32,000 nucleotides of DNA from Candidatus Pelagibacter ubique HTCC1062 (GTDB lineage Bacteria; Pseudomonadota; Alphaproteobacteria; Pelagibacterales; Pelagibacteraceae): assembly GCF_000012345.1 (NCBI RefSeq), contig NC_007205.1, forward strand, positions 1,276,760 to 1,308,759. The letters are read 5' to 3'. Shown here piece after piece: positions 1 to 20,996 of this stretch. The notes under the pieces are model-generated. The model saw only the letters and a list, made by a program, of their open reading frames with translations, did no database searches and was not told where the DNA came from. The translations under genes and the position numbers were made by a program. Every line of letters starts with the position of its first letter. Position 1 is the stretch's first letter.

Positions 1-396
1 CGATACTTTGTTAATGTTAAAAGCTTTTAAAGCCTTAATAGCAGATGTAATTGGGGTGGTAACTTTTGCTTCAGGCTTGGCTAACTTCACATTTTTTTCA
101 ATCACATCATAACCTGCTGCAATTGTTCCTGATGTACATCCATAAGCAACACAATCTATTTTTTGATCTGGTAAAATATCTTTAGTGACATCGGTAATAT
201 CATCTGCCATTTTAGCTAACGTTTCGTTGGTCAAGGGATTGTAACAATGTATTCGATTAACATACAGATCTACATCTCTTCCATAGATCACATTATTAAA
301 ATCCTTTTCAATTCTAAAATCGCTACCAAGCGTTATAAGACCAATTCTTGGGTTCGATTTTGAAATATATTTTGGCTCAACCTTGTTTAATTTCAT
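1..396 (-). CDS. Asp/Glu/hydantoin racemase superfamily protein (maleate isomerase / arylmalonate decarboxylase / EutA-like). Only the N-terminal 132 codons are present; the rest lies off the window.
   Basis: Not in the ORF track because it runs off the left edge. Manual translation of the reverse complement from ATG at 396-394 gives MKLNKVEPKYISKSNPRIGLITLGSDFRIEKDFNNVIYGRDVDLYVNRIHCYNPLTNETLAKMADDITDVTKDILPDQKIDCVAYGCTSGTIAAGYDVIEKNVKLAKPEAKVTTPITSAIKALKAFNINKVS. The frame stays open to position 1. The RIGLITL..D start and the YGCTSGT cysteine block are typical of this fold family (recalled, not searched). Confidence 0.6.
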   Translation of the reverse strand, partial: MKLNKVEPKYISKSNPRIGLITLGSDFRIEKDFNNVIYGRDVDLYVNRIHCYNPLTNETLAKMADDITDVTKDILPDQKIDCVAYGCTSGTIAAGYDVIEKNVKLAKPEAKVTTPITSAIKALKAFNINKVS

Positions 397-428
397 AAAT
401 TACCTGTAATATTTGGATTAAATATATA

Positions 429-457
429 TTGAATAAGGAGTCTAGTTAAAATAAAGT
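429..457 (+). promoter_or_regulatory. Candidate sigma70-type promoter for the 564-5448 operon (TTGAAT-17 nt-TAAAGT)
   Basis: TTGAAT lies at 429-434 and TAAAGT at 452-457 with a 17-nt spacer. This would give a leader of about 100 nt before ATG 564. Such hexamers occur by chance in AT-rich DNA. Confidence 0.25.
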
Positions 458-563
458 TTAACAAAAGCGTACATAACTCGTCGTTACCTAAGGTTTAAAC
501 GGTACTAAAGAATACGAAAGTGGGATCAGTCGTCTTTAAATTTAACTATTTAAGGGGGTTTGA

Positions 564-1730
564 ATGAAATTTGGATATTTTTGTAACACTACTAATTGGA
601 ATCATAAACCATACAATCAACTATTAAAAGAAACCCAAGAGATCACTATTTACTGTGATGAAAATAATTGGGACTCTATTTGGTATACCGAACATCACTT
701 TAATCATGAAGGAATGGAATCTTGTACAAATCCTTTAATGATGGGTGTGGATGCGGCCGCCAGAACAAAACAAATAAGAATAGGTCAAGCTTGTAATGTA
801 ATTACATTTCATAATCCTATCCGTCTAGCTGAAGACATTGCGTTGCTAGATCAATTGTCTGGAGGAAGAGTTGATGTTGGTATTGGAAGAGGAATTTACG
901 GAAGAGAAGCTATCAATATGAATAAAGAAGCTGACTTAAAAGATCAGGCAAAAAATTTTAGGTTGTTTGATGAGTCATTAACCATAATGAAAAAAGCTTG
1001 GACAGAAGAATTTTTTAGTCACCAGGGTGAGTTTTACACTTATCCATCACCAAATTTTACTTGGCAACATGACATGAGTCCACCTAGTGAAAAGTTTTTA
1101 GATACAAAAACAAATGAAATTAAAAAAATTAGCGTTGTACCAAAACCAAAACAAGAGCCACATCCGCCAATATGGCAAGTTGTGGATGGTGCACGTTCAA
1201 TTGAATGGGCGGCACAGAATGGCTTAAATACAATAATGTGGATACCTACAGTTAAAGCATTAAAGAAAAGGTTTGAAATTTATAGAGATGCAAAATCAAA
1301 AACTGAAAATAGAGAAGTGCCGCTTGGAGAAGGTATATCTTTAGTTAGAGATATGTTTGTTGCTGAAACTATGGAAGAAGCTGAAAAAATGGCTGGTGAG
1401 CATATTATCAATTATATGAAATGGGTTTGTCATTGGAGAGGTTTGGGTAATCATATGGATCCAGGAGAAGAACTACCAGAAACAAAACATAAATTAGACT
1501 TACTTAATTATGATTTTTTACATAAAAGAAATTTATTATTTGGAACACCAGAATATGTTGTTAATAAAATAAATGAATTAAAATCAGAATTAAATTTACA
1601 AAATCTTCAAGTTTGGTCTAATTTTCCTGGAATAGATCATGAGGCTTGCATGAGAAGTATAAAACTGTTTAATGATGAGGTTATACCAAAGATTAATTTA
1701 GACAATTCAAGTATCGAAAAGGCAAGTTAA
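564..1730 (+). CDS. Luciferase-like (LLM class) FMN-dependent monooxygenase/oxidoreductase
   Basis: 388-aa ORF. A strong SD (AAGGGGG at 552-558) precedes the ATG. WYTEHHF and FHNPIRLAEDIALLDQLSGGRVDVGIGRG resemble the LuxA/LLM signature blocks (recalled). Confidence 0.88.
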   Translation: MKFGYFCNTTNWNHKPYNQLLKETQEITIYCDENNWDSIWYTEHHFNHEGMESCTNPLMMGVDAAARTKQIRIGQACNVITFHNPIRLAEDIALLDQLSGGRVDVGIGRGIYGREAINMNKEADLKDQAKNFRLFDESLTIMKKAWTEEFFSHQGEFYTYPSPNFTWQHDMSPPSEKFLDTKTNEIKKISVVPKPKQEPHPPIWQVVDGARSIEWAAQNGLNTIMWIPTVKALKKRFEIYRDAKSKTENREVPLGEGISLVRDMFVAETMEEAEKMAGEHIINYMKWVCHWRGLGNHMDPGEELPETKHKLDLLNYDFLHKRNLLFGTPEYVVNKINELKSELNLQNLQVWSNFPGIDHEACMRSIKLFNDEVIPKINLDNSSIEKAS

Positions 1731-2317
1731 TGAAATTAGAGCTTAGAAAGTTTACAAAATTTGTAGATAAAACTTTTATCGAAGGTGGTAAGGAAGCTAA
1801 AGAGCCTGTTTTGATGGTTTCTGTTGCAGCTGTATTTAAAAATCCATGGCATGGAAAAGGCTTTGTTGAAGATTTAAAACCAATTATTTTAGATTTAGCA
1901 CCTAAATTAGGTGATATTTTAGTTCCAGAGTTAATAAAGGAGATTGGATCACCTGAAAAAATTTTGGCGTATGGAAAAGCTGGTACGGTCGGACTTGATG
2001 GTGAAATTGAGCATGCCTCAGCATTTATTCACACTTTAAGATTTGGAAATAAATTTAGAGATGCGGTTGGGGGAACATCTTATTTAAGCTTTACCAATAC
2101 CAGAGGTCCAGCTGGATCCAAAATGTCTATTCCAATGATGCATAAAACAGATTCAGGTCTAAGGCCTTATTATTTAACTCATGAATTTACGATTCATGAT
2201 GCTCCTTTTGATGATGAAATTGTTATAGCAATTGGTGGAGCCTCCACAGGTAGAGCTCATGCTAGAACGGGTGATCGTTATCAAGACATGAAAGAAATGG
2301 GAATAGATCCCAAATAA
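1730..2317 (+). CDS. DUF1185 / 'amino acid synthesis' family protein (PF06684-like), function unknown
   Basis: 195-aa ORF. Its start overlaps the upstream stop (TAATG). Blocks AAVFKNPWHGKGFVEDL, YGKAGTVGLDGEIEHASAFIH, HKTDSG and DEIVIAIGGASTGRAHAR match my recollection of this family. Confidence 0.75.
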   Translation: MKLELRKFTKFVDKTFIEGGKEAKEPVLMVSVAAVFKNPWHGKGFVEDLKPIILDLAPKLGDILVPELIKEIGSPEKILAYGKAGTVGLDGEIEHASAFIHTLRFGNKFRDAVGGTSYLSFTNTRGPAGSKMSIPMMHKTDSGLRPYYLTHEFTIHDAPFDDEIVIAIGGASTGRAHARTGDRYQDMKEMGIDPK

Positions 2318-2321
2318 ATTA

Positions 2322-3104
2322 ATGTTTCAAAATTTTGATCCAAATCAAAATTATTATTCATTTAATGATAAAAATACAGTTCCTGTAGTTTTTATTCATG
2401 GTGTCGGACTTGATCAGCGGATGTGGGAACCTCAAATTGAAGCTTTCAAAGAATATTCATTAATTACATATGATTTATTAGGGCATGGAAAAACTATTCT
2501 CAATAAAGAAGATGTAACATTAAATGATTTTTCAAACCAACTAAAATCGATATTAGAATATTTAAAAGTGGATAAGATTAATCTTGTTGGTTTTTCTTTA
2601 GGTTCTTTAATTGCACTAAATTTTGCCTCTAAATTTCAAGACAAACTAAACAGCCTTGTTGTAATGGGTACAACATATAAAAGAACTTCAGAACAAAGGT
2701 CTTTGGTTATAGAAAGATTTGAACAGGCTAAATTAAACAAACCTATTTCAAAACAAGCCCTAAAAAGATGGTTTACCAATCAATACTTAAATGACCATCC
2801 AGAAACTTATAATCAATTTATAAAAATTTTGACAAAAAATAAAAAAGATCATTTAAATTTTTTAAAAGCTTACAAATTATTTGCTTATCATGAGGACAAT
2901 ACAGATATAATTAAAAATATTAAAACTAGGACTCTTGTGATGACAGGTTCAAATGATTCAGGATCTACTGTCGAGATGTCAAAATCTTTATGTGAAGATT
3001 TAATAAACTCAAGTTTTATTGAGATAAATAATGGAAAACATCTTTGTAGTATAGAGTGTGCAGATGATGTTAATATCAATCTTAAAAATTTTATTAATAG
3101 ATAA
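2322..3104 (+). CDS. Alpha/beta-fold hydrolase (3-oxoadipate enol-lactonase / RutD-like subgroup)
   Basis: 260-aa ORF. It has the oxyanion HG motif (FIHGVG), the nucleophile elbow GFSLGS and a C-terminal GKH(L) histidine. It starts 4 nt after the upstream gene. Confidence 0.85.
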   Translation: MFQNFDPNQNYYSFNDKNTVPVVFIHGVGLDQRMWEPQIEAFKEYSLITYDLLGHGKTILNKEDVTLNDFSNQLKSILEYLKVDKINLVGFSLGSLIALNFASKFQDKLNSLVVMGTTYKRTSEQRSLVIERFEQAKLNKPISKQALKRWFTNQYLNDHPETYNQFIKILTKNKKDHLNFLKAYKLFAYHEDNTDIIKNIKTRTLVMTGSNDSGSTVEMSKSLCEDLINSSFIEINNGKHLCSIECADDVNINLKNFINR

Positions 3105-4586
3105 ATGACAAAAATTCAAAACTTTAAAATGTATATAAATGGACTGTGGGTTAATTCAGAGTCTGGAAAAACAATAGAAACTGTAAACCCAGAAAACAAC
3201 GAAGTTTGGGCAACTGTTCCTGAAGCTAACGAGAAGGATGTAGATAAAGCAGTTAAGGCCGCACAAAATGCTTTTGAAAAATCTTGGTCAAATTTACACC
3301 CAAGAGAAAGAGCTAAATACTTAAGGTCTCTTGCAGATCAATTAAGACAAAATGCTGAACATCTTGGAACTATAGAAACAATTGATACAGGAAAAATTTT
3401 TAGAGAAACAAAAACACAAGCTAACTATATTGCTGAGTATTACGATTATTTTGCAGGACTAGCCGATAAAGTTGAAGGAACAGTTGTGCCAATTGATAAG
3501 CCAGACATGCAAGTAACAACTACTAGAATACCTATTGGTGTTGTTGCTGCGATAATTCCTTGGAACTCCCAAATGTTATTAACTGCAGTAAAATTAGCAC
3601 CCGCATTAGCAATGGGTAATACAGTTGTAATAAAAGCTTCTGAACTAGCGCCTGTAACATTATTAGAATTTGCAAAACTAGTTGAAAAATCAGGTATACC
3701 TAAAGGTGTTGTAAATATAATTACTGGTCTAGGTGAGCCTTGTGGTAAAGCTCTAACTACACATGACCTTGTAGAAAGAATTGCTTTTACAGGTGGTCCT
3801 GAAACCGCAAAACATATTGTTAAAAATTCAGCAGAAAATTTATCGCAAGTAAGCTTAGAACTTGGTGGAAAAAGTCCTGTTGTCGTATTCGATGATGCCG
3901 AGCAAGAGAACGCACTAAATGGAATTACTGCTGGTATCTTTGGTGCAAGTGGTCAAAGCTGTATTGCAGGATCACGACTTTACATCCAATCTAAAATTTA
4001 TGATGACTTCTTAAATAAGCTAATAGCCAAGGCTGAAAAAATAAAATTAGGAGCTCCTATGGATAATGAAACTCAAATGGGACCTTTAAATAGTTATAAA
4101 CAACTAGAAAATATAGAAAAAAATATCAAAGCTACAATTGAGCAAGGTGGAAAAATTAGATGCGGTGGAAAAAGGTCCAATATATCTAGTAAAGCTTATT
4201 ATTTTCCAGCTACAATTATTGAGTGTGAAAATCATAATTTGCCTACAGCAGAGAATGAATTATTTGGTCCAGTTTTATCTGTTATGAAATTTGAAACAGA
4301 AGAGGATGTGATTAAATTAATGAATGATAATAAATATGGCTTATCTTCTGGAGTTTATACCTCAAACTTCGGAAGAGGTTTGAGAGTATCAAAAGCAATT
4401 AGAGCTGGAATTACTTTTGTAAATACTTATAGGTTAATTTCACCCATGGCCCCGTTTGGAGGAATTAAAGATAGTGGATATGGAAAAGAAGCAGGAATTG
4501 AGTCAATTAAAGAATACACAAGAATAAAAACCACATGGTTAAATTCATCGGATAAACCAATGACTGATCCATTTACAATGGGTTAA
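3105..4586 (+). CDS. NAD(P)+-dependent aldehyde dehydrogenase
   Basis: 493-aa ORF abutting the upstream stop (TAAATG). It carries the catalytic Glu block LELGGKSP, the catalytic Cys block GQSCIAGSR and an IPWNSQ block. Confidence 0.93.
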   Translation: MTKIQNFKMYINGLWVNSESGKTIETVNPENNEVWATVPEANEKDVDKAVKAAQNAFEKSWSNLHPRERAKYLRSLADQLRQNAEHLGTIETIDTGKIFRETKTQANYIAEYYDYFAGLADKVEGTVVPIDKPDMQVTTTRIPIGVVAAIIPWNSQMLLTAVKLAPALAMGNTVVIKASELAPVTLLEFAKLVEKSGIPKGVVNIITGLGEPCGKALTTHDLVERIAFTGGPETAKHIVKNSAENLSQVSLELGGKSPVVVFDDAEQENALNGITAGIFGASGQSCIAGSRLYIQSKIYDDFLNKLIAKAEKIKLGAPMDNETQMGPLNSYKQLENIEKNIKATIEQGGKIRCGGKRSNISSKAYYFPATIIECENHNLPTAENELFGPVLSVMKFETEEDVIKLMNDNKYGLSSGVYTSNFGRGLRVSKAIRAGITFVNTYRLISPMAPFGGIKDSGYGKEAGIESIKEYTRIKTTWLNSSDKPMTDPFTMG

Positions 4587-4590
4587 TTTT

Positions 4591-5448
4591 TTGACTGTCA
4601 GACATTATTTTTTAGTTTTATTTATCATGTTTCTTTTTGGTAGTTCTTATCCAATTAATAAACTTGCATTAAACACATCCCTCACCCCTGTATTGGCAGC
4701 CTCATTGAGAATGTTTATACTTTTTGTTTGTCTTGTTCCTTTTTGTAAATTTAAAATCCCAAACAAAAAATACTATCTGCCTTTAGCAGGTTTTTCTTTT
4801 TCAATGGGCTTTGGTGTTTTTATTTTTTTAAATTTATCTCTGCAAAAAGCAACTATGGTTGCTCCTATAATTATTGGAGCTCAACTAGCAATACCCTTTG
4901 CAATTCTGGCAAGCTCTTTATTTTTAGGTGAAAAGGTAACTCCTAAAATGTGGGTATTAATATTTATTTCTTTTTTTGGAATTTTTTTAATTGGTTATGA
5001 TCCAAATTTAAAAAGTGAAATTTTTGCAATTTTTCTTTGTGCAATTTCTGCTTTTTTCTATGGTGTTGCGAATGTGTTTTCTAGATATATTAAAGATATA
5101 GATGTTAAATTAACCAACACAGTTATGGGCTTTACTGGTTTTATACTGCTTTTTCTTTTTTCCATTTTTTTTGAAGGAAACACAGTTTATCAATTACTAA
5201 ATATTGATTTTTATACTTGGCTTTTATTACTCCATAATGGGGTGATGGTTTCTGTAATTGCACACACTTCATTATTTTATTTATATAAATTTTATTCAGT
5301 AAATAAAATTATGCCCTTTTATTCTTTATTTCCAGTATTTGGCCTAATCCTAACGTTCTTTATATTCGGAGAAATCCCAACTCTACTTAGTGCGATTGGT
5401 GGTTTAATTATAATATTTTCTGTATATAGGCTTCAAAAAATTAGATAA
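4591..5448 (+). CDS. EamA/DMT-superfamily membrane transporter
   Basis: 285-aa highly hydrophobic ORF with about 10 predicted TM segments and two EamA-like halves. The start is TTG at 4591, and an in-frame ATG lies at 4627. The first TM segment begins before that ATG, so the TTG is kept. Confidence 0.8.
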   Translation: MTVRHYFLVLFIMFLFGSSYPINKLALNTSLTPVLAASLRMFILFVCLVPFCKFKIPNKKYYLPLAGFSFSMGFGVFIFLNLSLQKATMVAPIIIGAQLAIPFAILASSLFLGEKVTPKMWVLIFISFFGIFLIGYDPNLKSEIFAIFLCAISAFFYGVANVFSRYIKDIDVKLTNTVMGFTGFILLFLFSIFFEGNTVYQLLNIDFYTWLLLLHNGVMVSVIAHTSLFYLYKFYSVNKIMPFYSLFPVFGLILTFFIFGEIPTLLSAIGGLIIIFSVYRLQKIR

Positions 5449-5523: not shown

Positions 5524-6708
5524 ATGAAAAAACTATTTATTGCTGCTTTTATATTCGTTTCTACTTTTACAACGAATACATTCGCAGAAGTTAAAATGGG
5601 AATCATTTTAGGATTTACTGGTCCTATTGAATCTCTAACACCAGCTATGGCTGCATCTGCAGAGCTTGCATTTAAAGAAGCTTCTGACTCAGGTTCACTA
5701 TTAGGTGGAGAAACTATTTCAGTAGTAAGAGCAGATTCAACTTGTGTTGATTCAGCAGCAGCAACAGCAGCAGCAGAAGGTGTTATTGCACAAGGTGTTG
5801 CAGCAATTATGGGTGCTGACTGTTCAGGTGTAACTGGTGCTATTGCATCTAATGTTGCTGTACCAAATGGTGTAGTAATGATTTCACCTTCAGCAACTTC
5901 TCCAGGACTTACAGCTTTAGATGATAAAGGCTTCTTTTTTAGAACAGCCCCATCTGATGCTAGAGGTGGTCAGATTTTAGCTGATATTACTAAAGACAGA
6001 AAAATCAAAAGTGTAGCAATTACTTACACTAACAATGACTATGGAAAAGGTTTGGCTGATGTTTATGAAGCAGCTGTAAAAGCTCATGGTATTAAAGTAA
6101 CAACTGTATCTGCTCACGAAGATGGTAAAGCAGATTACTCATCTGAAGTAGCAACTTTAGCTTCAGCAGGTGGTGATGCCGTAGCAGTAATTGGTTACCT
6201 AGACCAAGGTGGAAAAGGAATTATTCAAGGTTCTTTAGACTCTGGTGCATTTGATAAATTTATTTTATCTGATGGTATGATCGGTGACTCATTAACTGAA
6301 GCTTTTGGAAAAGATTTAAATAAATCTTTTGGTTCAATTCCTGGTTCAATGAATAAAAAAACAGCAGGTACTTTTGCCTCTGTTGCTAAAGCAGCGGGTA
6401 TCGACTCATCTGGACCTTACACTGGTGAATCTTATGATGCAGCAGCTTTAATCGTTCTTGCGATGCAAGCAGGTGGATCAGCAGATAGAGCTTCTATTGC
6501 AAAAAATGTAATGGATGTTGCTAATGCCCCTGGTACTAAGATTTACCCAGGTGAACTTAAAAAAGGTTTAGACTTACTAGCTAAAGGTAAAAAAGTTGAC
6601 TACGAAGGTGCAACTGGTGTTACTTTTACTAACGTAGGTGAAGCTGAAGGTTCTTTCCTAGAAAAAGAAATCAAAGGTGGAAAATTCAAAAATAAAAAAC
6701 AAAGATAA
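5524..6708 (+). CDS. Periplasmic substrate-binding protein, Leu/Ile/Val-binding (type I PBP, HAAT family), secreted
   Basis: 394-aa ORF with signal peptide MKKLFIAAFIFVSTFTTNTFA/EV. The mature part is Ala/Gly-rich with blocks typical of LivJ/K-like receptors (GFTGPI, FFFRTAPSD, YTNNDYGKG). It has its own RBS and terminator. Confidence 0.88.
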   Translation: MKKLFIAAFIFVSTFTTNTFAEVKMGIILGFTGPIESLTPAMAASAELAFKEASDSGSLLGGETISVVRADSTCVDSAAATAAAEGVIAQGVAAIMGADCSGVTGAIASNVAVPNGVVMISPSATSPGLTALDDKGFFFRTAPSDARGGQILADITKDRKIKSVAITYTNNDYGKGLADVYEAAVKAHGIKVTTVSAHEDGKADYSSEVATLASAGGDAVAVIGYLDQGGKGIIQGSLDSGAFDKFILSDGMIGDSLTEAFGKDLNKSFGSIPGSMNKKTAGTFASVAKAAGIDSSGPYTGESYDAAALIVLAMQAGGSADRASIAKNVMDVANAPGTKIYPGELKKGLDLLAKGKKVDYEGATGVTFTNVGEAEGSFLEKEIKGGKFKNKKQR

Positions 6709-6728
6709 TTAAAATCTTAATTTTAAAA

Positions 6729-6762
6729 CCCTCAGCAGTGAAAATTGCTGGGGGTTTTTTTT
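6729..6762 (+). terminator. Rho-independent terminator, possibly bidirectional between convergent genes
   Basis: Stem CCCTCAGCA (6729-6737) pairs with TGCTGGGGG (6746-6754) over 9 bp including one G-U. The loop is 8 nt and is followed by T8 (6755-6762). Confidence 0.8.
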
Positions 6763-8767: not shown

Positions 8768-10138
8768 TTATTTTATTTCGATTTTTTCAGGAAGTATACC
8801 TTTAGGTCTATACCTCATGATCAACAGAAGACCCATCCCCATCATTAAATATCTAAAGTAAGGAACGCTTTCAATTAAATGAATTTTTAATGAATGTGTA
8901 TCTGCTAAACCTGCTGTAAATAAATTAATCAAGAATAATGCAATTGGCGCTGCCTCAATCCATAGAAACCAGACTGCAAAACCTCCTAAAATTGCTCCAA
9001 AATTATTCCCACTTCCTCCAACAATAACCATAACCCAGATTAAAAAAGTATATCTCATAGGTTGGTAACTACCTGGAGTAAATAAACCATCTTGAGTGAC
9101 TAACATAGCGCCAGCAATTCCAACTATAGCTGAGCCTAAAATAAAGATTAATAAATGTTGCTTGACGACATTTTTTCCCATTGCATTAGCAGCTTCTTCA
9201 TTGTCTCTTATCGCACGCATCATTCTTCCCCATGGAGAGTAAAGAGCTTTTTGAGTTACTATTAACAAGGCTATAACAACAATTAAAAATAAACCTGAAT
9301 AACAAAGTTTTACAAAAACTGATGATCCCTCAATTACTAATTGGTTAAGAGCTGATTGTTTATCAGTAATACTGGAGATTAAATCTAATTTCCCAGAATT
9401 AAATTTTGCAACTAAATTTATAAACCATTCTTTAGTTTGGAGTTCAATTTCATAAGGCACTGGTCGATCCAGTCCAATTACATTTTTAACACCTCTTGTT
9501 AACCAATCTTCATGCTTGATTATGGCTATAACTATTTCTGATATTAGTAGTGTGGCAATAGCTAAATAGTCTGCACGTAAACCTAAAGCAACTTTACCAA
9601 CTATAAATGCTAGACCTGCTGCAAAAAATGCACCTACGATCCAAGAAAACATAATTGGCAATCCTAATCCACCAAGAAATCCTGTTGTTGCTGGGTTAAC
9701 ATTTTCAATAGCTTCAATACTTGTCTCTGATGTAACTCTTATAATTATAATTCCAGCAATAATAATTGTAGCAATACCATAAGTTCTAATTTTAGATTTT
9801 TCAAAATTTTTTAATACAAAACGTATTGCAAGGACCATTGCAACAATTAACCATAAAGACATTAGAATACTAAAACCTCCCGCAACCCATGCTTCTTGTA
9901 CAGGTTCAACAGAAATTAAAACTGCAGCTAATCCACCTAATGCCGCATATCCCATTAGACCAAAATTGATTAACCCTGCATACCCCCATTGAATATTTGC
10001 CCCCATAGTCATTACAGCAGAAATTAAACACATGTTAAAAATTGATAGAGCTACATTCCAAGATTGAAATATTCCAACTAAAATAATAAGCCCCAACATG
10101 ATTGCGTAAGCTATAATTACATTTAAGTGCTTTCTCAC
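8768..10138 (-). CDS. livM: Branched-chain/hydrophobic amino acid ABC permease, LivM-type (module 2)
   Basis: 456-aa ORF with the conserved RAIRDNEEAANAMG block. The GTG start overlaps the livH stop (GTGA). It has about 60 more hydrophilic residues before this block than the paralog at 16907-17959. Confidence 0.85.
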   Translation of the reverse strand: MRKHLNVIIAYAIMLGLIILVGIFQSWNVALSIFNMCLISAVMTMGANIQWGYAGLINFGLMGYAALGGLAAVLISVEPVQEAWVAGGFSILMSLWLIVAMVLAIRFVLKNFEKSKIRTYGIATIIIAGIIIIRVTSETSIEAIENVNPATTGFLGGLGLPIMFSWIVGAFFAAGLAFIVGKVALGLRADYLAIATLLISEIVIAIIKHEDWLTRGVKNVIGLDRPVPYEIELQTKEWFINLVAKFNSGKLDLISSITDKQSALNQLVIEGSSVFVKLCYSGLFLIVVIALLIVTQKALYSPWGRMMRAIRDNEEAANAMGKNVVKQHLLIFILGSAIVGIAGAMLVTQDGLFTPGSYQPMRYTFLIWVMVIVGGSGNNFGAILGGFAVWFLWIEAAPIALFLINLFTAGLADTHSLKIHLIESVPYFRYLMMGMGLLLIMRYRPKGILPEKIEIK

Positions 10139-11145
10139 AGTACCTTCCCTTTGAATATTCCATTAGGTCTATAAAGTAAGACAATCACCAGTATAGAAAA
10201 TGAGACAGCAAATTTATAATCTGTTGATAATAACTGAACTAACGTTTCTGGCTCCATGCTTGCTGGCAAAACATACATAAAGAATTTTTTATAAGCATAA
10301 GTTAGGAATATTTCTGAAAATGCTATGACATATCCTCCTAAAAATGCTCCAAAGGGGTTTCCAATACCTCCAACAATTGCTGCAGCAAAAATTGGCAACA
10401 TGTTATTAAAGTAGGTAAATGGCTTAAAACTTTTGTCCAATCCATATAAAGCTCCACCAATTGTCGCTAAAATTCCTGCAATAATCCAAGTAATCATAAC
10501 TACTCTTTTAGGATCAATTCCAGACAATAAAGCTAAATCCTCATTATCAGAATAAGCACGCATGCTTTTTCCTGTCTTAGTTTTGTTTAAAAACCAAAAT
10601 AAAATAGAAACCAATACAATTGTTACAAATATAGTTAATACCTGACTAGATTTAATTGCTAAACCTTCATTAAGTCCTGTCATTTCTTTAAACTCACTTG
10701 CTTTGATAATAAATTTTTCCCCATCAAAAAACCTCTGATCTGATGGACCGATTATTATTCTAACAACAGCTTGAGTTACAAACATTACACCAATACTAAC
10801 CATTGCAAGTTGAACAGGAGGACTTTTGCTCACTCTATAATATCTAAAAACAAATTTATCAATTAAGAGCATATATCCAATTGTTAAAACAATTGCAAAA
10901 GGGATGGCAAGTAACGCTGTTGGTAAAACACCTAAAGAAATTCCAAGTGATTGAAAATACCAAGTAAATAATATGGTGACCATCGTACCAAAAGCCATCA
11001 TGTCCCCAGTTGCAAAATTAGCAAACCTTAAAATTCCATAAATTAAAGTTACAAATATTGCACCTAGTGCTAGTTGAGAGCCATACGTAAGAGCTGGCAT
11101 AAAAATATAATTTAATAATAATATAATTGCGTTTAAGAATTCCAT
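10135..11145 (-). CDS. livH: Branched-chain/hydrophobic amino acid ABC permease, LivH-type (module 2)
   Basis: The ORF track starts at a GTG (11154). I prefer the in-frame ATG at 11145, which is preceded by AGGTGG plus a 5-nt spacer. Blocks MRAYSDNEDLALLSGI and GGIGNPFGAFLGG are LivH-like. Confidence 0.85.
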   Translation of the reverse strand: MEFLNAIILLLNYIFMPALTYGSQLALGAIFVTLIYGILRFANFATGDMMAFGTMVTILFTWYFQSLGISLGVLPTALLAIPFAIVLTIGYMLLIDKFVFRYYRVSKSPPVQLAMVSIGVMFVTQAVVRIIIGPSDQRFFDGEKFIIKASEFKEMTGLNEGLAIKSSQVLTIFVTIVLVSILFWFLNKTKTGKSMRAYSDNEDLALLSGIDPKRVVMITWIIAGILATIGGALYGLDKSFKPFTYFNNMLPIFAAAIVGGIGNPFGAFLGGYVIAFSEIFLTYAYKKFFMYVLPASMEPETLVQLLSTDYKFAVSFSILVIVLLYRPNGIFKGKVL

Positions 11146-11146
11146 A

Positions 11147-11854
11147 CTATCCACCTAAAAAAGAGCTTCTTACTCTTGGGTCGTTTAATAATTCTTTTCC
11201 TGTTCCTGAATACTTATTTTCACCTGTAACTAGTACATATCCACGATCAGAAATATTAAGCGCTTGTTTAGCATTTTGCTCAACCATTAAAATTGCAACA
11301 TTAGTTCTTTTTACTTTGATGATATGATCAAATAATTCATCCATTACTATTGGAGAAACACCAGCAGTGGGTTCATCTAACATTAATACAGATGGTTTTA
11401 TCATTAATGCTCTTCCAAGAGCCACTTGTTGTCTTTGACCTCCAGATAATTCACCAACTAATTGGTTTCTTTTTTCTCTAAGTATTGGAAATAGTTCATA
11501 AATTTCTTCTATAATATTTTGATAATTGTCATCTCTTAAATAAGCTCCCATCTCTAAATTTTCTTCAACACTCATTCCAGAAAATACATTTTTTGTCTGT
11601 GGTACAAATGAAATACCTTCTCTCACCCTATCTTGTGGTGAAAGTTTTGAAATATCTTTGCCATCAATTATAACTGAACCAGATTTTAAATTTAAAAGAC
11701 CAAGCATTGCTTTCATGGCTGTTGATTTACCAGCACCATTAGGTCCAAGAATTGAAACTATTTCGCCTCTGTTTACATTAACTGAACAAGAGTTGATGAT
11801 ATCAGGTCCATTACCATAACCACCTGTCATTTTTAAACCTTCAAAAAAAGCCAT
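11147..11854 (-). CDS. livF: ABC transporter ATP-binding protein, LivF-type (module 2)
   Basis: Walker A is GPNGAGKST, the signature is LSGGQRQ and Walker B is LMLDEP. The start overlaps the livG stop by 1 nt. Confidence 0.9.
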   Translation of the reverse strand: MAFFEGLKMTGGYGNGPDIINSCSVNVNRGEIVSILGPNGAGKSTAMKAMLGLLNLKSGSVIIDGKDISKLSPQDRVREGISFVPQTKNVFSGMSVEENLEMGAYLRDDNYQNIIEEIYELFPILREKRNQLVGELSGGQRQQVALGRALMIKPSVLMLDEPTAGVSPIVMDELFDHIIKVKRTNVAILMVEQNAKQALNISDRGYVLVTGENKYSGTGKELLNDPRVRSSFLGG

Positions 11855-12648
11855 TAGTTCTCATCCTTTATCTTTGATCCTCTGCCTAAATAGCTTTCTA
11901 TAACTTTTTCATCTTTCTTAGCTTCTTCAGCGGTCCCTTCAAATAAAACTGAACCTTCTGCCATAACAATAACAGGGTTACATAATCTACTTATAAACTC
12001 CATATCATGTTCGATCATACAGAATGTATAACCTTCTTCCTTATTTAACTTAAGAATAGCAGTTCCTAAATCTTTAAGCAGTGTTCTATTAACACCAGCA
12101 CCTACTTCATCAAGTAATACTAATTTTGCATCAACCATCATGGTTCTTCCAAGTTCTAATAATTTTTTTTGGCCTCCAGATAAATTCCCAGCTAATTCAT
12201 TTGATAAATGAGTCAGATTTAAAAAATCAACTACGTCTTGGGCTTTTTGTTTAACTTTAAGTTCTTCCGTTCTAACTAAACTTGGTTTTAATAAAGCAGT
12301 CATTAAATTTTCACCTGACTGATTTGCAGGAACCATCATTAAATTTTCAAGCACAGAAAGATTAGTAAACTCATGTGCTATTTGAAAAGTTCTTAAAATT
12401 CCTTTAGAAAATAATTCATATGAAGGAACGTCAGTAACATCCTCATTATTAAACAATACTTTTCCTTGTGAGGATTTTAAATTTCCAGCTATTAGATTGA
12501 ACAAGGTGGTCTTGCCTGAGCCGTTAGGTCCTATAATTCCTGTAATAGAGCCTTTCTTAATCTTTAATGAACAATCTGACACTGCAGCCAAACCTCCAAA
12601 ATATTTAGATAGATTTTCAATTTGTAAGATGTTCTGTTCTTGATCCAT
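11854..12648 (-). CDS. livG: ABC transporter ATP-binding protein, LivG-type (module 2)
   Basis: Walker A is GPNGSGKTT, the signature is LSGGQKK and Walker B is LVLLDEV (Val where Pro is usual). The C-terminal VIESYLG tail is typical of LivG. Confidence 0.9.
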   Translation of the reverse strand: MDQEQNILQIENLSKYFGGLAAVSDCSLKIKKGSITGIIGPNGSGKTTLFNLIAGNLKSSQGKVLFNNEDVTDVPSYELFSKGILRTFQIAHEFTNLSVLENLMMVPANQSGENLMTALLKPSLVRTEELKVKQKAQDVVDFLNLTHLSNELAGNLSGGQKKLLELGRTMMVDAKLVLLDEVGAGVNRTLLKDLGTAILKLNKEEGYTFCMIEHDMEFISRLCNPVIVMAEGSVLFEGTAEEAKKDEKVIESYLGRGSKIKDEN

Positions 12649-12653
12649 GAAAT

Positions 12654-13421
12654 TTATTTATTTAATCTTCTATGTATACTGTTGAGTGTCTTTTCTAAAG
12701 ATTTATAAAAACCTGCTCTGCTTAATTCTTTAACTCCTTGTTCATTCAATCCTTTAGGTGTTTGAGACTCTTTTACTAAAAATTTTAAATCTTTTTTAGA
12801 GTTTACAACTGCATCTTCTGATAATGCTAAAAATAAAGATGTTATATATTTTTGTGCATTATTTCGTTTAACTCCTCTTTTCACTAACCAGTCTGTCATT
12901 ACTCTTAGTAATTCATAAAAGGGTGCCATCATTCCAGAGGTTGACCAAAAATTGATTGAAGATTTTTCATTTTTAATTTCAACGGTTGTGCCAATTTTAT
13001 TAAAAAAATCTTTAACTTTTTTATTGGGTGGACAAATGGGTACTGGTCCTTTTTTTAAAGATATAGGAGGTAATGGTATCGCTCTTATAATTTTTGCTTT
13101 AACTTTGATTGCTTTTTTAAGTTGAGCTAAAGTAATTGTTGATATGAAACTAATTACAGTTTGATTTGATCTAAACTTTAAATTTTTAATAATTTTTTCA
13201 CCCACTGCTGGAGTTACTGATAAAAATATCCAATCACAAGAATTAATAATTTCCTGGTTATCTTTACTAACAGTTATCTTTTTAAACTTTTTTTTTAAAA
13301 TACTAGATGTAGATTTATTTCTCTCAGAGATGATTATTTTGTTATACGAAATACTGGAACTGCAAATACCAGTGATAACGGCAGACGTAATTTTACCTGT
13401 TCCTATAAAGCCTAATTTCAT
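12654..13421 (-). CDS. Pyrroline-5-carboxylate reductase family NAD(P)H oxidoreductase (divergent, ProC-like)
   Basis: 255-aa ORF. It has an N-terminal Rossmann motif GFIGTGKI. The C-terminal ESQTPKGLNEQG occupies the place of the P5CR (S/T)PGGTT block. Overall it is a divergent member. Confidence 0.65.
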   Translation of the reverse strand: MKLGFIGTGKITSAVITGICSSSISYNKIIISERNKSTSSILKKKFKKITVSKDNQEIINSCDWIFLSVTPAVGEKIIKNLKFRSNQTVISFISTITLAQLKKAIKVKAKIIRAIPLPPISLKKGPVPICPPNKKVKDFFNKIGTTVEIKNEKSSINFWSTSGMMAPFYELLRVMTDWLVKRGVKRNNAQKYITSLFLALSEDAVVNSKKDLKFLVKESQTPKGLNEQGVKELSRAGFYKSLEKTLNSIHRRLNK

Positions 13422-13453
13422 AAATATAGTTACTTTATAGTGATATTAGTGAA

Positions 13454-14365
13454 TTAATTAATAAAAAAAGAACCTCTAATTCTCAATAGTTCTCTGCTTA
13501 AATCTTTATTTTCTTTGAAAGGTTTTCTTCCGTGTAACCAAAAATAATTATTAGCCACAATGGTTGATCCAGGTACTAATTTAGTGATTACTTTGTTCTT
13601 ACTCTCCTCTAAAGCATCTGATAATTTTTGTAAGAAAATTCCTTGATCCATATTTTTTGGTTCAGGGAATTGATCAATATAAGAAATATTTGGCTTACCG
13701 TTATCATCTGTTGTGAAAACTGGATGTTCAACTTTATATTCTATATTTTTACTTTTAGGAGACCCCCATACAAAATTTTGTTTTCCAATGGGGTCATTGA
13801 ATAAATCCTCACAATGTTCCCAGTCATCAAGATGCAACATTGCTGTTTCTCCTCCTTGGACATTTTGTTCTTCAATTTTAGTCATCAAAAGCCAATCTGT
13901 GATCTCTTTAACATATGTCCCATCCGTATGAAGATCCATATTTGTGTAAGCTTTTCTTAAGTACGAGTCACTTTTATCTTCATGCTTTACAAAAAATCTT
14001 GCATAATATTTTCCAGCCATGGCATCATAATTTGGATTACCAATTAAATAGGCAATTGCTGTTGATAGCTTTACTAAAAAGATATCATTAATTTTTGCAC
14101 TTACTTTTTTTGGTCCAATTATAAAACAACCTGTTTCTCTATCTCTTACTATTGAATTAAGTAATTTGCTTAATTTATTAGAAGTTAAATCATCTAAACT
14201 TTTAGCAATAGTAAATCTGGTAAATGGTTTGTACTCTAAGGCAGTGATATCAAATTTATTGAATGGAAATATTAATTTATCTAAAATTTCATCTTCAATT
14301 CTAATGTCAATTATTCTTTTTGAATTTTGATGTTCTGTTATTGTTATTCCAGAGATATTTTCCAT
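13454..14365 (-). CDS. csiD: CsiD/GlaH-family Fe(II)/2-oxoglutarate-dependent hydroxylase (glutarate 2-hydroxylase-like)
   Basis: 303-aa ORF. Long blocks agree with my recollection of E. coli CsiD: ALEYKPFTRFTIAK, YDAMAGKYYARFFVKHEDKSDSYLR, DLHTDGTYVKEITDW, EQNVQGGETAMLHLDDWEH, YIDQF, FWLHGR and RELLRIRGSFF. The HxD...H iron triad is present. Confidence 0.85.
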   Translation of the reverse strand: MENISGITITEHQNSKRIIDIRIEDEILDKLIFPFNKFDITALEYKPFTRFTIAKSLDDLTSNKLSKLLNSIVRDRETGCFIIGPKKVSAKINDIFLVKLSTAIAYLIGNPNYDAMAGKYYARFFVKHEDKSDSYLRKAYTNMDLHTDGTYVKEITDWLLMTKIEEQNVQGGETAMLHLDDWEHCEDLFNDPIGKQNFVWGSPKSKNIEYKVEHPVFTTDDNGKPNISYIDQFPEPKNMDQGIFLQKLSDALEESKNKVITKLVPGSTIVANNYFWLHGRKPFKENKDLSRELLRIRGSFFIN

Positions 14366-14688
14366 TAGAAATAATTACTTAGTACCGCCATCATGATAGC
14401 AGAAATAACAGTAGGATAAACAAAATTTCTTTTAGATATAAAAAATATAAATAAACAAAATAAAACAACAGTTACTCTACTTAAGTAACTAGCATCAGAC
14501 AAAACACCTACTGGAAATATAATTGTTCTTGCTATTAATGCGGCTAGTGTTGAGTAGGCAAGACAATTAAACCATTTAAATAATTTTGAAGTTTCTTTTA
14601 TTCCTTGTGAAGAAATTGCACCTAAAAACCTTGAAGAGAAAGTTGCAAGGGACGTGACTAAGATTGCAAGAAATACACTAGTTGACAT
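14365..14688 (-). CDS. azlD: AzlD-family branched-chain amino acid exporter small subunit
   Basis: 107-aa ORF with 3-4 TM segments, immediately downstream of and overlapping azlC by 11 nt. Its stop overlaps the csiD-like start. Confidence 0.8.
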   Translation of the reverse strand: MSTSVFLAILVTSLATFSSRFLGAISSQGIKETSKLFKWFNCLAYSTLAALIARTIIFPVGVLSDASYLSRVTVVLFCLFIFFISKRNFVYPTVISAIMMAVLSNYF

Positions 14689-15382
14689 TTAGCTCTCCTA
14701 TAAAATAAGCAATTGTTCCACCAACAAGTCCTCCCAATAAAATTGACCACTCTGGAGATAGAAAATAAAAAATTGGTCCTAATACCAAGCCTAAAATTAC
14801 TGCAGCTGTAATTTGAATAGTTTTCATTGCCCCAACCATCATGCATAAAAAATAAATTGGGTTTAAAATTGCTAAGCCCATCATCATATTTTTATCCAAA
14901 TAATCAGATGCGTAAAATCCTATAAAAGTTCCTATTACCGCTGTAGTCCAAGTAGCACAACCAATTCCAATCCAAAAATCAATTCTATGTTTTTTTTCAA
15001 TACTTTTATAGTTACTCTTCATAATCAGCCATGCAGATACTGCTATAAAATGACATGAAAAGTAATATTTCCATTTTGGTTGGCTTTTGTGCATCATTAA
15101 TGGAAACAAAGAAACAGCCATTGGATAAAGACGAGCATTAACAAACCAAACAGCTAAAAAAATATTTAATAATGAAGCTCCAACTAATAACGACTCTGCC
15201 ATAACTAATGATCCAGGCAAAGCATAAGTAAGCATAGTTGAAAAAATACTTTCTTGAATATTAAATCCTAAATTTTTAAGAAGTGCCCCAATTGCTATAA
15301 AACAACATCCAAGTGCAAGGGCTGGGCTATCTGGAGCTAAAATAGATTTGAAACCTTTAAAGAAAAATTCTTTATTAATCAT
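14678..15382 (-). CDS. azlC: AzlC-family branched-chain amino acid exporter large subunit
   Basis: 234-aa polytopic membrane ORF. The size and the pairing with an AzlD-like ORF are characteristic. Confidence 0.8.
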   Translation of the reverse strand: MINKEFFFKGFKSILAPDSPALALGCCFIAIGALLKNLGFNIQESIFSTMLTYALPGSLVMAESLLVGASLLNIFLAVWFVNARLYPMAVSLFPLMMHKSQPKWKYYFSCHFIAVSAWLIMKSNYKSIEKKHRIDFWIGIGCATWTTAVIGTFIGFYASDYLDKNMMMGLAILNPIYFLCMMVGAMKTIQITAAVILGLVLGPIFYFLSPEWSILLGGLVGGTIAYFIGELNVN

Positions 15383-18852: not shown

Positions 18853-18871
18853 AAATTATTTAAATGTTTAT

Positions 18872-18901: not shown

Positions 18902-18916
18902 TTTACATATTAGGTA

Positions 18917-20937: not shown

Positions 20938-20996
20938 ATGACCTTAAATAAAATGCATTAATCAATTTTTTTAAATATAATGAAAATAAAGGATTT

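What the first reader, a model, noticed from the sequence alone, without database searches (positions are those of the whole stretch)
564..5448. Uncharacterised five-gene operon: LLM monooxygenase, DUF1185, alpha/beta hydrolase, aldehyde dehydrogenase, DMT transporter
The genes are translationally coupled (TAATG at 1728-1732, TAAATG at 3102-3107, and 4-nt gaps elsewhere). I cannot assign this combination to a named pathway. The chemistry suggests oxygenative cleavage followed by hydrolysis and oxidation of an aldehyde. One possibility is a type II Baeyer-Villiger/luciferase-like oxygenation giving a lactone or ester, which an enol-lactonase-like hydrolase opens and the ALDH then oxidises. A second is SsuD-like desulfonation giving an aldehyde plus sulfite, with a TauE-type exporter only 1.3 kb downstream. 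No NAD(P)H:flavin reductase partner, which two-component LLM enzymes normally need, is present in the window. The divergent neighbour at 1-396 is a racemase/isomerase-superfamily gene.
Basis: partly seen in the sequence, partly recalled or inferred. Interest (0 to 1): 0.65.

Follow-up and report, generated by a model that had tools for sequence, protein, structure and literature searches.

The report
Trigonelline-like ring-opening operon in SAR11
This very common operon of the ocean bacterium SAR11 has the same enzyme set as the known pathway that breaks down the plant and algal osmolyte trigonelline, but its first, ring-opening oxygenase belongs to a different, uncharacterised branch, so SAR11 probably eats trigonelline or a related small nitrogen-ring compound not yet identified.

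Summary
The window is from SAR11 (Pelagibacteraceae). The conserved unit has four genes, not five: a luciferase-like monooxygenase (LLM), DUF1185, an alpha/beta hydrolase (ABH) and an aldehyde dehydrogenase (ALDH). This order recurs in 12 SAR11 loci and 10 loci of Bacillales and Actinomycetota. The DMT gene is a variable add-on. The binding-protein gene at 5524-6708 probably ends the transcript.

The combination can be placed near a named pathway. It matches the trigonelline (tgn) cluster: TgnB LLM, TgnF DUF1185, TgnD hydrolase and TgnC ALDH. Against a Sinorhizobium meliloti tgn-type cluster, the SAR11 ALDH is 52% identical and DUF1185 55%. The LLM is only 26% identical and the hydrolase 27%. 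The LLM belongs to a separate 388-aa clade near LuxA and type II Baeyer-Villiger enzymes.

Orthologous clusters in other phyla carry flavin reductases, GntR regulators, and NCS1 or BCCT transporters. This points to an FMNH2-dependent ring opening of a zwitterionic N-heterocycle. SAR11 has no linked reductase. The TauE/desulfonation idea is not supported.

Verdict: a new variant of a known kind, with the substrate unproven.

The parts
397..563 (.). Divergent intergenic region holding the presumed promoter of the operon, with an AGGGGG ribosome-binding site 8 nt before the LLM ATG.
   Evidence: Sequence read. No Rfam family matches here. The promoter itself is inferred.
564..1730 (+). Luciferase-like monooxygenase (388 aa), presumed FMNH2-dependent oxygenase component of a two-component system. 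It belongs to an uncharacterised clade near LuxA and type II BVMOs, and is proposed as the ring-opening first enzyme.
   Evidence: PF00296, 151 bits. No NCBIfam model reaches its cut-off. Nearest PDB entries are 7bip, 8cbb, LuxA, PuwE and 3,6-DKCMO. E43-H44-H45 is invariant. Identity is 26% to the S. meliloti TgnB-type LLM and 58% to the Alteribacillus orthologue.
1730..2317 (+). [quoted passage not shown]
   Evidence: PF06684, 215 bits. PDB matches 2qtp and 3byq. 55% identity to the DUF1185 of the S. meliloti tgn-type cluster. TgnF is reported to stimulate TgnE (PMC7913881).
2322..3104 (+). Alpha/beta-fold serine hydrolase (260 aa), TgnD/PcaD-like. Proposed to hydrolyse the ring-opened enamide or ester intermediate.
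   Evidence: PF00561. PcaD model 123 bits and RutD model 75 bits, both below cut-off. 27% identity to the S. meliloti TgnD-type hydrolase and 38% to the Alteribacillus orthologue. One cluster member carries the JGI name for TgnD. GFSLG and a C-terminal His are visible in the translation.
3105..4586 (+). NAD(P)-dependent aldehyde dehydrogenase (493 aa), TgnC-like.
   Evidence: PF00171, 540 bits. 52% identity to the S. meliloti TgnC-type ALDH against 34% to the TgnE-type SSADH. Cluster members carry the JGI name for TgnC. The catalytic ELGGKS and GQSC motifs are in the translation.
4591..5448 (+). EamA/DMT membrane transporter (285 aa, TTG start). A variable accessory gene, not part of the conserved core.
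   Evidence: PF00892. Homologue present after the ALDH only in L011 and L012 among the SAR11 loci. Absent in L002 and L003.
5524..6708 (+). LIV-type periplasmic substrate-binding protein (394 aa), probably the last gene of the transcript. Candidate uptake component for the pathway's substrate.
   Evidence: PF13458. Own RBS after a 75-nt gap. Follows the ALDH or DMT gene in L004-L007 and L009-L013.
6725..6758 (+). Strong intrinsic terminator (15-bp stem followed by a T run; an A run precedes the stem, so it may act in both directions) between the convergent SBP and TauE genes.
   Evidence: sequence.
8768..12648 (-). LivM/LivH-type permeases and two ABC ATPases. Probable membrane and ATPase partners of the SBP at 5524-6708.
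   Evidence: Pfam. Conserved next to the SBP in L004-L007 and L009-L013. The functional link to the operon is inferred.
1..396 (-). 5' part of an EutA-like (Amdase / Asp-Glu racemase family) gene. It is a divergent neighbour and its link to the operon is uncertain.
   Evidence: TIGR02990, 103 bits on the fragment. The full-length homologue in L002 scores 190 bits against a cut-off of 318, and is followed by a DoeA/EutD-like M24 hydrolase and a PotD-type ABC transporter.

Best explanation
The core LLM-DUF1185-ABH-ALDH cassette is a catabolic module built like the trigonelline (tgn) pathway, and more distantly like the Rut pyrimidine pathway.

Proposed steps:
1. The LLM takes reduced FMN from an unlinked flavin reductase and uses a flavin-peroxide to open the ring of a small zwitterionic N-heterocycle. 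The substrate would be trigonelline itself or a related pyridinium or pyrimidine-type betaine. The product is an aldehyde or lactol.
2. The TgnC-like ALDH oxidises this to the acid.
3. The TgnD-like serine hydrolase cleaves the remaining enamide or ester, releasing a small amine or acid and a semialdehyde or dicarboxylate that enters central metabolism.
4. The TgnF-like DUF1185 protein assists the aldehyde-handling step.

In this genome, uptake is probably by the adjacent LIV-type ABC system, perhaps with the DMT protein.

Shown here: family assignments, cross-phylum synteny, degrees of similarity to a tgn-type cluster, and the accessory genes in orthologous clusters. Inferred: the order of steps, the ring-opening chemistry, the substrate class, and the transporter link.
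For: 1. The four genes occur in the same order in 12 SAR11 loci. They also occur together in Alteribacillus, Bacillus salipaludis, Sporosarcina (with the hydrolase gene displaced upstream), an Actinomycetota MAG, Sinomonas, three Streptomyces, Nocardia and Actinomadura, with LLM identity of 49-58%. LLM relatives below about 45% identity lack the partner genes.
2. A S. meliloti plasmid cluster reads GntR-DUF1185-ABH-flavin reductase-LLM-ALDH-ABC-SSADH. JGI names members of its LLM and ABH clusters TgnB and TgnD.
3. Against that cluster, the SAR11 ALDH is 52% identical and DUF1185 55%. These values match those against the true orthologues in Alteribacillus (50% and 59%).
4. JGI gives members of the window's own ALDH and ABH clusters the TgnC and TgnD enzyme names.
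5. Orthologous clusters carry flavin reductases of two unrelated families: PF01613 in L019-L025 and PF03358 in L018. Riboflavin-kinase genes also occur nearby. This shows a two-component FMNH2 enzyme that is not tied to one partner.
6. Linked transporters are NCS1 in four lineages and BCCT in three. These families typically carry N-heterocycles and betaines.
7. B. salipaludis adds a TgnE-like SSADH.
8. The LLM keeps the E43-H44-H45 motif, which is also present in the TgnB-type LLM. From my own knowledge, not tested here, LuxA has the same motif. The nearest structures (luciferases, RslO1, PuwE, 3,6-DKCMO) all use nucleophilic peroxyflavin chemistry.
9. TgnA/TgnB open the trigonelline ring directly (PMC8269262). 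TgnB is an LLM (PMC11354265). TgnF stimulates TgnE (PMC7913881).
Against: - The pathway-defining enzyme is not a TgnB orthologue. Identity is 26%, with a 26-residue insertion. The clade profile scores S. meliloti TgnB no higher than PDB 7bip (182.6 against 181.2 bits).
- The hydrolase is only 27% identical to the TgnD-type enzyme.
- The operon has no flavin reductase and no SSADH.
- NCS1 and BCCT are broad families, and SAR11 itself uses neither here.
- A third cluster type, in Parasedimentitalea, shares equally similar ALDH and DUF1185 proteins next to carnitine genes. The ALDH-DUF1185 pair is therefore a reusable cassette and does not fix the substrate.
- I could not obtain the Acinetobacter baylyi Tgn sequences or the primary paper. 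The tgn reference used here is a homologue identified by automated JGI names.
- No expression or biochemical data exist.
Confidence: 0.55

Rival explanations
1. It is simply the trigonelline pathway. The 388-aa LLM is a non-orthologous replacement of TgnB that makes the same ring-opened lactol, which genuine TgnC, TgnD and TgnF orthologues then process. SAR11 would use it to harvest picomolar to nanomolar trigonelline. This is a special case of the best explanation.
For: - Three of the four proteins are as similar to the tgn-type cluster as cross-phylum orthologues would be.
- JGI gives TgnC and TgnD names to SAR11 cluster members.
- BCCT transporters, GntR regulators and a TgnE-like SSADH occur in orthologous clusters.
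- Trigonelline is present in seawater, and a marine bacterium grows on it (PMC8269262).
Against: - The LLM is no closer to TgnB than to unrelated LuxA-like enzymes.
- Hydrolase identity is 27%.
- Trigonelline is far scarcer in seawater than homarine, which sits oddly with such an abundant SAR11 operon.
- The equally similar ALDH and DUF1185 in a carnitine-linked cluster show that these two proteins do not specify trigonelline.
Confidence: 0.25
2. Type II Baeyer-Villiger route on a non-nitrogenous cyclic or aliphatic ketone. The LLM inserts oxygen to give a lactone or ester, the hydrolase opens it, and the ALDH oxidises the resulting aldehyde.
For: - The nearest solved structures are BV-type or luciferase LLMs.
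- The hydrolase's best curated model is 3-oxoadipate enol-lactonase (123 bits).
- A 34%-identical LLM on a Peribacillus plasmid sits next to a lactonase.
Against: - The enol-lactonase score is far below its cut-off of 256.
- The linked transporters are NCS1 and BCCT rather than carboxylate or terpene-type systems.
- The ALDH and DUF1185 are TgnC- and TgnF-like.
- No alcohol dehydrogenase is present to turn a hydroxy acid into an aldehyde.
Confidence: 0.12
3. Downstream module of an ectoine-like or other cyclic amidine/amino-acid osmolyte pathway. The divergent EutA-like and DoeA/EutD-like genes open the ring, and the four-gene cassette processes the product (deacylation, oxidative removal of an amine, aldehyde oxidation).
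For: - EutA-like and DoeA/EutD-like genes plus an ABC transporter lie directly upstream in the window-type loci (TIGR02993 474 bits, TIGR02990 190 bits).
- An Amdase-family gene and an M24 gene precede the cluster in the Actinomycetota MAG L016.
- BCCT carriers and halophilic hosts fit compatible-solute catabolism.
Against: - Both Eut-like proteins score below their curated cut-offs.
- The L016 proteins are only 30% and 20% identical to the SAR11 ones.
- Most loci with the cassette, in SAR11 and elsewhere, lack these genes.
- LuxA-like LLMs are not known to deaminate.
Confidence: 0.08
4. SsuD-like desulfonation giving an aldehyde plus sulfite, with export by TauE.
For: - TauE lies 1.3 kb downstream.
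- Some SAR11 variants and Sporosarcina carry an Xsc-like ThDP enzyme in or near the cluster (412-450 bits, below the cut-offs of 620-676).
Against: - The SsuD model scores 31 bits against a cut-off of 518, and the SfnG model 52 against 383.
- SsuD and MsuD structures rank far below LuxA-like ones.
- TauE is convergent and behind a terminator.
- TauE is found only in this window among all loci examined.
Confidence: 0.03

Closest known systems
Trigonelline degradation cluster tgnABCDEF of Acinetobacter baylyi ADP1 (Perchat et al. 2018, PNAS; known to me from the abstract and from citing papers, since the paper is not in the library). It is represented here by a S. meliloti plasmid homologue, L081.
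   Same: - The same four protein families sit in one cluster: LLM oxygenase, DUF1185 helper, alpha/beta hydrolase and ALDH.
- ALDH identity is 52% and DUF1185 identity 55% to the tgn-type proteins.
- Orthologous clusters in other phyla also carry a GntR regulator, a flavin reductase and sometimes an SSADH.
- The same logic applies: peroxyflavin ring opening, aldehyde oxidation, hydrolysis.
   Different: - The LLM is from another clade (388 against 346 aa, 26% identity, 26-residue insertion).
- The hydrolase is only 27% identical.
- This window has no TgnA reductase, no TgnE SSADH and no regulator.
- The transporters differ: LIV-type ABC and DMT here, PotD-type ABC in S. meliloti.
- The substrate is unproven.
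Rut pyrimidine utilisation pathway (RutA-G) of E. coli
   Same: An LLM opens an N-heterocycle using FMNH2 from a separate reductase. An alpha/beta hydrolase (RutD) and a protein with a chorismate-mutase-like fold (RutC/RidA) handle reactive intermediates. A semialdehyde is the end product. This comparison rests on established knowledge of the pathway.
   Different: - No RutA-type model appears among the 25 best NCBIfam LLM hits listed, 26 in all.
- RutD scores 75 bits against a cut-off of 238.5.
- There is no RutB amidohydrolase.
- The semialdehyde would be oxidised by an ALDH rather than reduced by RutE.
LuxA luciferases and type II Baeyer-Villiger LLMs (3,6-diketocamphane monooxygenase, RslO1, PuwE OX domain)
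   Same: These are the nearest solved structures by sequence profile and by fold. From my own knowledge, LuxA has the same E43-H44-H45 motif that is invariant in this clade; this was not tested here. All are FMNH2-dependent two-component enzymes.
   Different: - Only 19-25% identity.
- The genomic context is catabolic, with Tgn-like partners.
- There are no lux or camphor genes.
homABCDER homarine operon (Ferrer-Gonzalez et al. 2026, PMC13236597), also present in SAR11
   Same: A SAR11 operon for a pyridinium betaine isomer of trigonelline. It includes an ALDH-like gene and, in Cobetia, a betaine-type transporter.
   Different: The hom operon is defined by an adjacent homA (about 700 nt, FAD-binding) and homB (about 1,700 nt). 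No such genes exist in this operon or anywhere in the window.

Membership tests
tgn trigonelline catabolic cluster | TgnB-type LLM oxygenase (345-346 aa type, named TgnB by JGI) | tested here: not met
   26% identity to the S. meliloti TgnB-type LLM, with a 26-residue insertion. The clade profile scores it at 182.6 bits, the same as the unrelated PDB entry 7bip at 181.2. SAR11 LLM cluster members carry only generic names, whereas the 345-346 aa type is repeatedly named TgnB.
tgn trigonelline catabolic cluster | TgnA flavin reductase encoded in the cluster | tested here: not met
   No Flavin_Reduct or FMN_red domain in any window ORF of at least 100 aa. phmmer with the S. meliloti reductase finds nothing in the window, but does find one in L019-L025.
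tgn trigonelline catabolic cluster | TgnC-type ALDH | tested here: met
   52% identity over the full length to the S. meliloti ALDH adjacent to TgnB, against 34% to the TgnE-type SSADH. Members of the window's own 90% cluster carry the JGI name for TgnC. Enzyme activity was not tested.
tgn trigonelline catabolic cluster | TgnD-type alpha/beta hydrolase | tested here: inconclusive
   27% identity to the S. meliloti TgnD-type protein. One of the 15 members listed from the window's 90% cluster (40 read) carries the JGI name for TgnD; most of the others are named pimeloyl-ACP methyl ester carboxylesterase. Actinobacterial orthologues score equally against TgnD and against the SAR11 hydrolase.
tgn trigonelline catabolic cluster | TgnF DUF1185 protein | tested here: met
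   PF06684 at 215 bits. 55% identity to the DUF1185 of the S. meliloti cluster.
tgn trigonelline catabolic cluster | TgnE succinate-semialdehyde dehydrogenase in the cluster | tested here: not met
   The operon has only one ALDH, and it is TgnC-like. A TgnE-like ALDH is linked in B. salipaludis L018.
tgn trigonelline catabolic cluster | Turnover of trigonelline to methylamine, formate, CO2 and succinate | not testable with these tools
   Needs enzymology or growth and uptake assays.
Luciferase-like monooxygenase superfamily (PF00296) | Full-length match to the family model and a TIM-barrel fold | tested here: met
   151 bits over residues 1-340. AlphaFold model with pLDDT 88.8. Foldseek TM-scores of 0.74-0.88 to LLM structures.
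SsuD/MsuD alkanesulfonate monooxygenases | Score above the curated cut-off of the SsuD models | tested here: not met
   TIGR03565 scores 31 bits against 518.2, and NF001939 scores 26 against 510.
Rut pathway | RutA-type LLM, RutB amidohydrolase and RutD hydrolase | tested here: not met
   No RutA model among the 25 best NCBIfam hits listed, 26 in all. RutD scores 74.8 bits against 238.5. No isochorismatase-like gene in the window.
hom homarine operon | Adjacent homA (about 700 nt, FAD-binding) and homB (about 1,700 nt) | tested here: not met
   Gene sizes and families in the operon are 1167, 588, 783, 1482 and 858 nt. None is FAD-binding or about 1,700 nt. The hom definition comes from PMC13236597.

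The most novel reading that the evidence does not exclude
A previously unrecognised clade of LuxA-like flavin monooxygenases, conserved with TgnC/TgnD/TgnF-like partners from SAR11 to Bacillales and Actinomycetota, opens the ring of an abundant marine N-heterocyclic osmolyte other than trigonelline. That would define a new catabolic pathway, and a new dissolved-organic-nitrogen sink, in the ocean's most abundant bacterium. It would run on free FMNH2 without a dedicated reductase.
Probability: 0.3. Interest if true: 0.72.

Novelty: new variant of a known kind. Interest (0 to 1): 0.55.

Why it matters
SAR11 is the most abundant heterotroph in the sea and keeps very few catabolic operons. This one is very common in ocean data. 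The 90%-identity clusters of the LLM and DUF1185 hold 2,852 and 12,417 sequences, and the window's exact proteins occur on 160-350 contigs.

Knowing its substrate would add a defined compound to the short list of molecules SAR11 is known to consume. It would also give a marker gene for that flux in metatranscriptomes.

The work points experiments at a small set of candidates (trigonelline and related pyridinium or pyrimidine-type zwitterions). It also identifies tractable hosts (Streptomyces, Bacillus, Alteribacillus) that carry the same cassette with regulators and reductases.

Finally, the ALDH-DUF1185 pair appears as a reusable cassette in at least three cluster types. This bears on the still unknown biochemical role of DUF1185.

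Tried and rejected
- **Primary tgn paper.** PMC5948990 is not in the library. I relied on citing papers and my own recollection of the abstract.
- **Distant named relatives.** The two searches with the window's LLM and DUF1185 returned only SAR11 sequences at 85-95% identity and gave no view of more distant, named proteins.
- **Acinetobacter TgnB.** The third homologue search, with S. meliloti TgnB, confirmed the JGI TgnB names but never reached Acinetobacter.
- **Genome scan.** It did not return Acinetobacter baylyi or Ruegeria pomeroyi. Direct comparison with experimentally proven Tgn proteins was therefore impossible.
- **Plasmid search.** It found only relatives at 34% identity or below.
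- **hom operon.** Considered and rejected on gene sizes and families. No supplements are held for that paper.
- **Upstream transporter link.** The SBP upstream in L002 is 32% identical to the S. meliloti tgn-cluster SBP, which is not discriminating.
- **EutA/M24 association.** The L016 proteins are only 30% and 20% identical to the SAR11 ones.
- **Riboswitch.** No Rfam match upstream of the operon.
- **Promoter scan.** Results are at chance level (31 found against 29.5 expected).
- **Literature.** Searches for SAR11 plus luciferase-like monooxygenase, and for DUF1185 or 'amino acid synthesis family', found nothing on this cluster.

Full report
**What is in the sequence.** The window has about 31% G+C. 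Its proteins match Pelagibacteraceae (SAR11) at 85-96% identity. On the plus strand lie:
- an LLM at 564-1730;
- a DUF1185/AA_synth protein at 1730-2317;
- an alpha/beta hydrolase at 2322-3104;
- an ALDH at 3105-4586;
- an EamA/DMT transporter at 4591-5448 with a TTG start;
- after a 75-nt gap with its own ribosome-binding site, a LIV-type substrate-binding protein at 5524-6708.

A 15-bp-stem terminator at 6725-6758 follows the binding-protein gene, and the convergent TauE gene lies beyond it. No NCBIfam equivalog model reaches its cut-off for any of the five proteins. No flavin reductase domain occurs in any ORF of at least 100 aa in the window. Tight gene junctions are common throughout this streamlined window, so on their own they say little.

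**Conservation.** A profile of diverse LLM relatives was used to fetch 80 loci from species-representative genomes. I searched the ORFs of these loci with the window's proteins.
- LLM-DUF1185-ABH-ALDH occurs in the same order in all 12 SAR11 loci that are long enough.
- All four genes also occur together in 10 of 11 non-SAR11 loci whose LLM is 49-58% identical. These are Alteribacillus, Bacillus salipaludis, Sporosarcina (where the hydrolase gene sits upstream of the LLM instead), an Actinomycetota MAG, Sinomonas, three Streptomyces, Nocardia and Actinomadura. The actinobacteria carry two tandem DUF1185 genes.
- A Stellaceae MAG keeps only the LLM and the hydrolase.
- LLM relatives below about 45% identity have none of the partner genes.

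The DMT gene follows the ALDH only in the window, L011 and L012. In the closest relatives (L002 and L003, 94% LLM identity) the ALDH is followed by panB, guaA and guaB on the other strand. The conserved unit is therefore four genes. TauE is found next to the cassette only in this window.

**Link to a named pathway.** A paper on coumarin degradation states that the DUF1185 protein TgnF stimulates TgnE in the trigonelline pathway of Acinetobacter baylyi (PMC7913881). Other papers state that TgnA/TgnB open the trigonelline ring and that TgnB (Q6F9F6) is an LLM. From my own knowledge of the Perchat et al. 2018 abstract, the steps are:
1. TgnAB cleave the ring to a hydroxybutyrolactone.
2. TgnC oxidises it.
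3. TgnD hydrolyses it to methylamine, formate, CO2 and succinate semialdehyde.
4. TgnE, helped by TgnF, oxidises the succinate semialdehyde.

A tblastn search of plasmids led to a S. meliloti locus reading GntR-DUF1185-ABH-flavin reductase-LLM-ALDH-ABC transporter-SSADH. JGI gives members of its LLM and hydrolase clusters the TgnB and TgnD enzyme names.

**How similar.** Identities of the SAR11 proteins to the S. meliloti tgn-type cluster and to the Alteribacillus orthologues:

| Protein | vs S. meliloti tgn-type | vs Alteribacillus |
|---|---|---|
| ALDH | 52% (34% to the TgnE-type SSADH) | 50% |
| DUF1185 | 55% | 59% |
| Hydrolase | 27% | 38% |
| LLM | 26% | 58% |

Two of the four proteins are thus as Tgn-like as they are like their true orthologues. 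The hydrolase is ambiguous, and the oxygenase is clearly a different lineage. It is 388 aa against 346 aa, with a 26-residue insertion. The clade profile scores TgnB at 182.6 bits, the same as the unrelated PDB entry 7bip at 181.2.

JGI already gives members of the window's own ALDH and hydrolase clusters the TgnC and TgnD names, but gives the LLM only a generic name. A third cluster type, on a Parasedimentitalea plasmid next to carnitine genes, also has ALDH and DUF1185 proteins that are 55% and 53% identical. The ALDH-DUF1185 pair therefore behaves as a reusable cassette and does not fix the substrate.

**What kind of LLM.** By sequence, by profile and by predicted fold (pLDDT 88.8), the nearest solved structures are:
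- the Enhygromyxa luciferase;
- RslO1;
- LuxA;
- Atu2307;
- the PuwE OX domain;
- 3,6-diketocamphane monooxygenase.

SsuD, MsuD and SfnG rank far lower. E43-H44-H45 is invariant across the clade and also in the TgnB type. From my own knowledge, not tested here, LuxA has the same motif. This favours nucleophilic peroxyflavin (Baeyer-Villiger-like) chemistry. It fits an attack on an electrophilic ring carbon as well as on a ketone.

**Accessory genes in orthologous clusters.**
- Flavin reductases of two unrelated families are linked: PF01613 in Sporosarcina and the six actinobacterial genomes, and PF03358 in B. salipaludis. Riboflavin-kinase or RibB-like genes occur in Bacilli. The enzyme is therefore a two-component FMNH2 oxygenase that accepts reduced flavin from different partners. 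This makes an unlinked reductase in SAR11 plausible.
- GntR/FCD regulators flank the non-SAR11 clusters of Bacillales and Actinobacteria, except in Sporosarcina and the Actinomycetota MAG.
- Transporters are NCS1 in four lineages and BCCT in three. Together these suggest a zwitterionic N-heterocycle.
- B. salipaludis adds a TgnE-like SSADH.
- Within SAR11, many genomes place a 2OG-Fe(II) oxygenase upstream. Some insert an Xsc-like ThDP enzyme between the LLM and DUF1185. Sporosarcina also has a homologue of this ThDP enzyme. Their roles are unexplained.

**Alternatives.**
- The hom homarine operon of SAR11 is defined by adjacent homA (about 700 nt) and homB (about 1,700 nt). These are absent here.
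- The SsuD/TauE idea fails on model scores, on gene arrangement and on conservation.
- A pure ketone Baeyer-Villiger route cannot be excluded. It does not explain the transporters or the Tgn-like partners.
- An ectoine-related role is suggested by the EutA-like and DoeA/EutD-like neighbours in the window-type loci. However, that association is not conserved.

**Verdict.** The best reading is a tgn/Rut-type, FMNH2-dependent ring-opening pathway for trigonelline or a related N-heterocyclic zwitterion. It uses a new LLM clade and has no dedicated reductase in SAR11. It is a new variant of a known kind. The interest is moderate to high because of the organism's abundance, but the substrate remains unproven.

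Noticed in passing
L006 11167-12870 (also L007-L012, L014); L019 973-2703: In a subset of SAR11 genomes, a 567-aa ThDP enzyme is inserted between the LLM and DUF1185 genes. It is closest to sulfoacetaldehyde acetyltransferase Xsc (412 bits, cut-off 620). A homologue (688 bits) lies in the Sporosarcina cluster next to a 3-hydroxyisobutyrate-dehydrogenase-like gene. Its role is unexplained.
   Followed up: partly
L004-L007, L009-L012 and L014, upstream of the LLM, directly adjacent in most (e.g. L006 8927-9895): A 322-aa 2OG-Fe(II) oxygenase (PF03171 plus PF14226, no NCBIfam match) precedes the LLM in most SAR11 variants. L004 and L006 also carry one or two EamA transporter genes just upstream of it. 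None of these is present in this window.
   Followed up: partly
L017 7295-8293; L083 10232-11615; L018 17920-18339: RibB-like (DHBP synthase) and riboflavin-kinase-like genes recur beside LLMs of this clade in Bacilli. They are fused in Alteribacillus. This may be an unrecognised FMN-supply or reductase partner for two-component LLMs.
   Followed up: no
L020-L025, between the LLM and ABH genes: Actinobacterial versions of the cassette carry two tandem DUF1185 genes instead of one.
   Followed up: no
window 1-396 (-); L002 3397-9860 (-): Divergent from the operon in window-type loci lies a cluster of an EutA-like gene, a DoeA/EutD-like M24 hydrolase (474 bits, cut-off 613) and a PotD-type ABC transporter. 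It looks like an ectoine-like osmolyte module whose scores fall below the equivalog cut-offs.
   Followed up: partly
L082 3410-10035 (Parasedimentitalea marina plasmid pW43B): This is a third cluster type combining an LLM (27% identity), ALDH (55%), ABH (32%) and DUF1185 (53%) with RidA and a CoA transferase. It sits next to carnitine-type genes (BKACE, GlxA-family regulator). It shows that the ALDH-DUF1185 pair is reused in other pathways.
   Followed up: partly
window 20857-20939 (-): The rhtB sRNA/leader motif (RF01814, 90 bits) lies just upstream of the LysE/RhtB-family gene and overlaps its predicted TTG start (20249-20884). The true start codon is probably further downstream.
   Followed up: no
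window 12654-20158 (-): The window also holds a CsiD-like glutarate hydroxylase, a P5C-reductase-like gene (PRK06476, 349 bits), AzlCD and a second complete LIV-type ABC system. Together they form a dense island of amino-acid and osmolyte uptake and catabolism genes.
   Followed up: no
L004 3559-5447 (-): A gamma-butyrobetaine-dioxygenase-like gene (316 bits, cut-off 415; also TmpA-like) and a class II aldolase lie a few kb upstream of the cassette in one SAR11 genome. These are further betaine-type catabolic genes in the neighbourhood.
   Followed up: no
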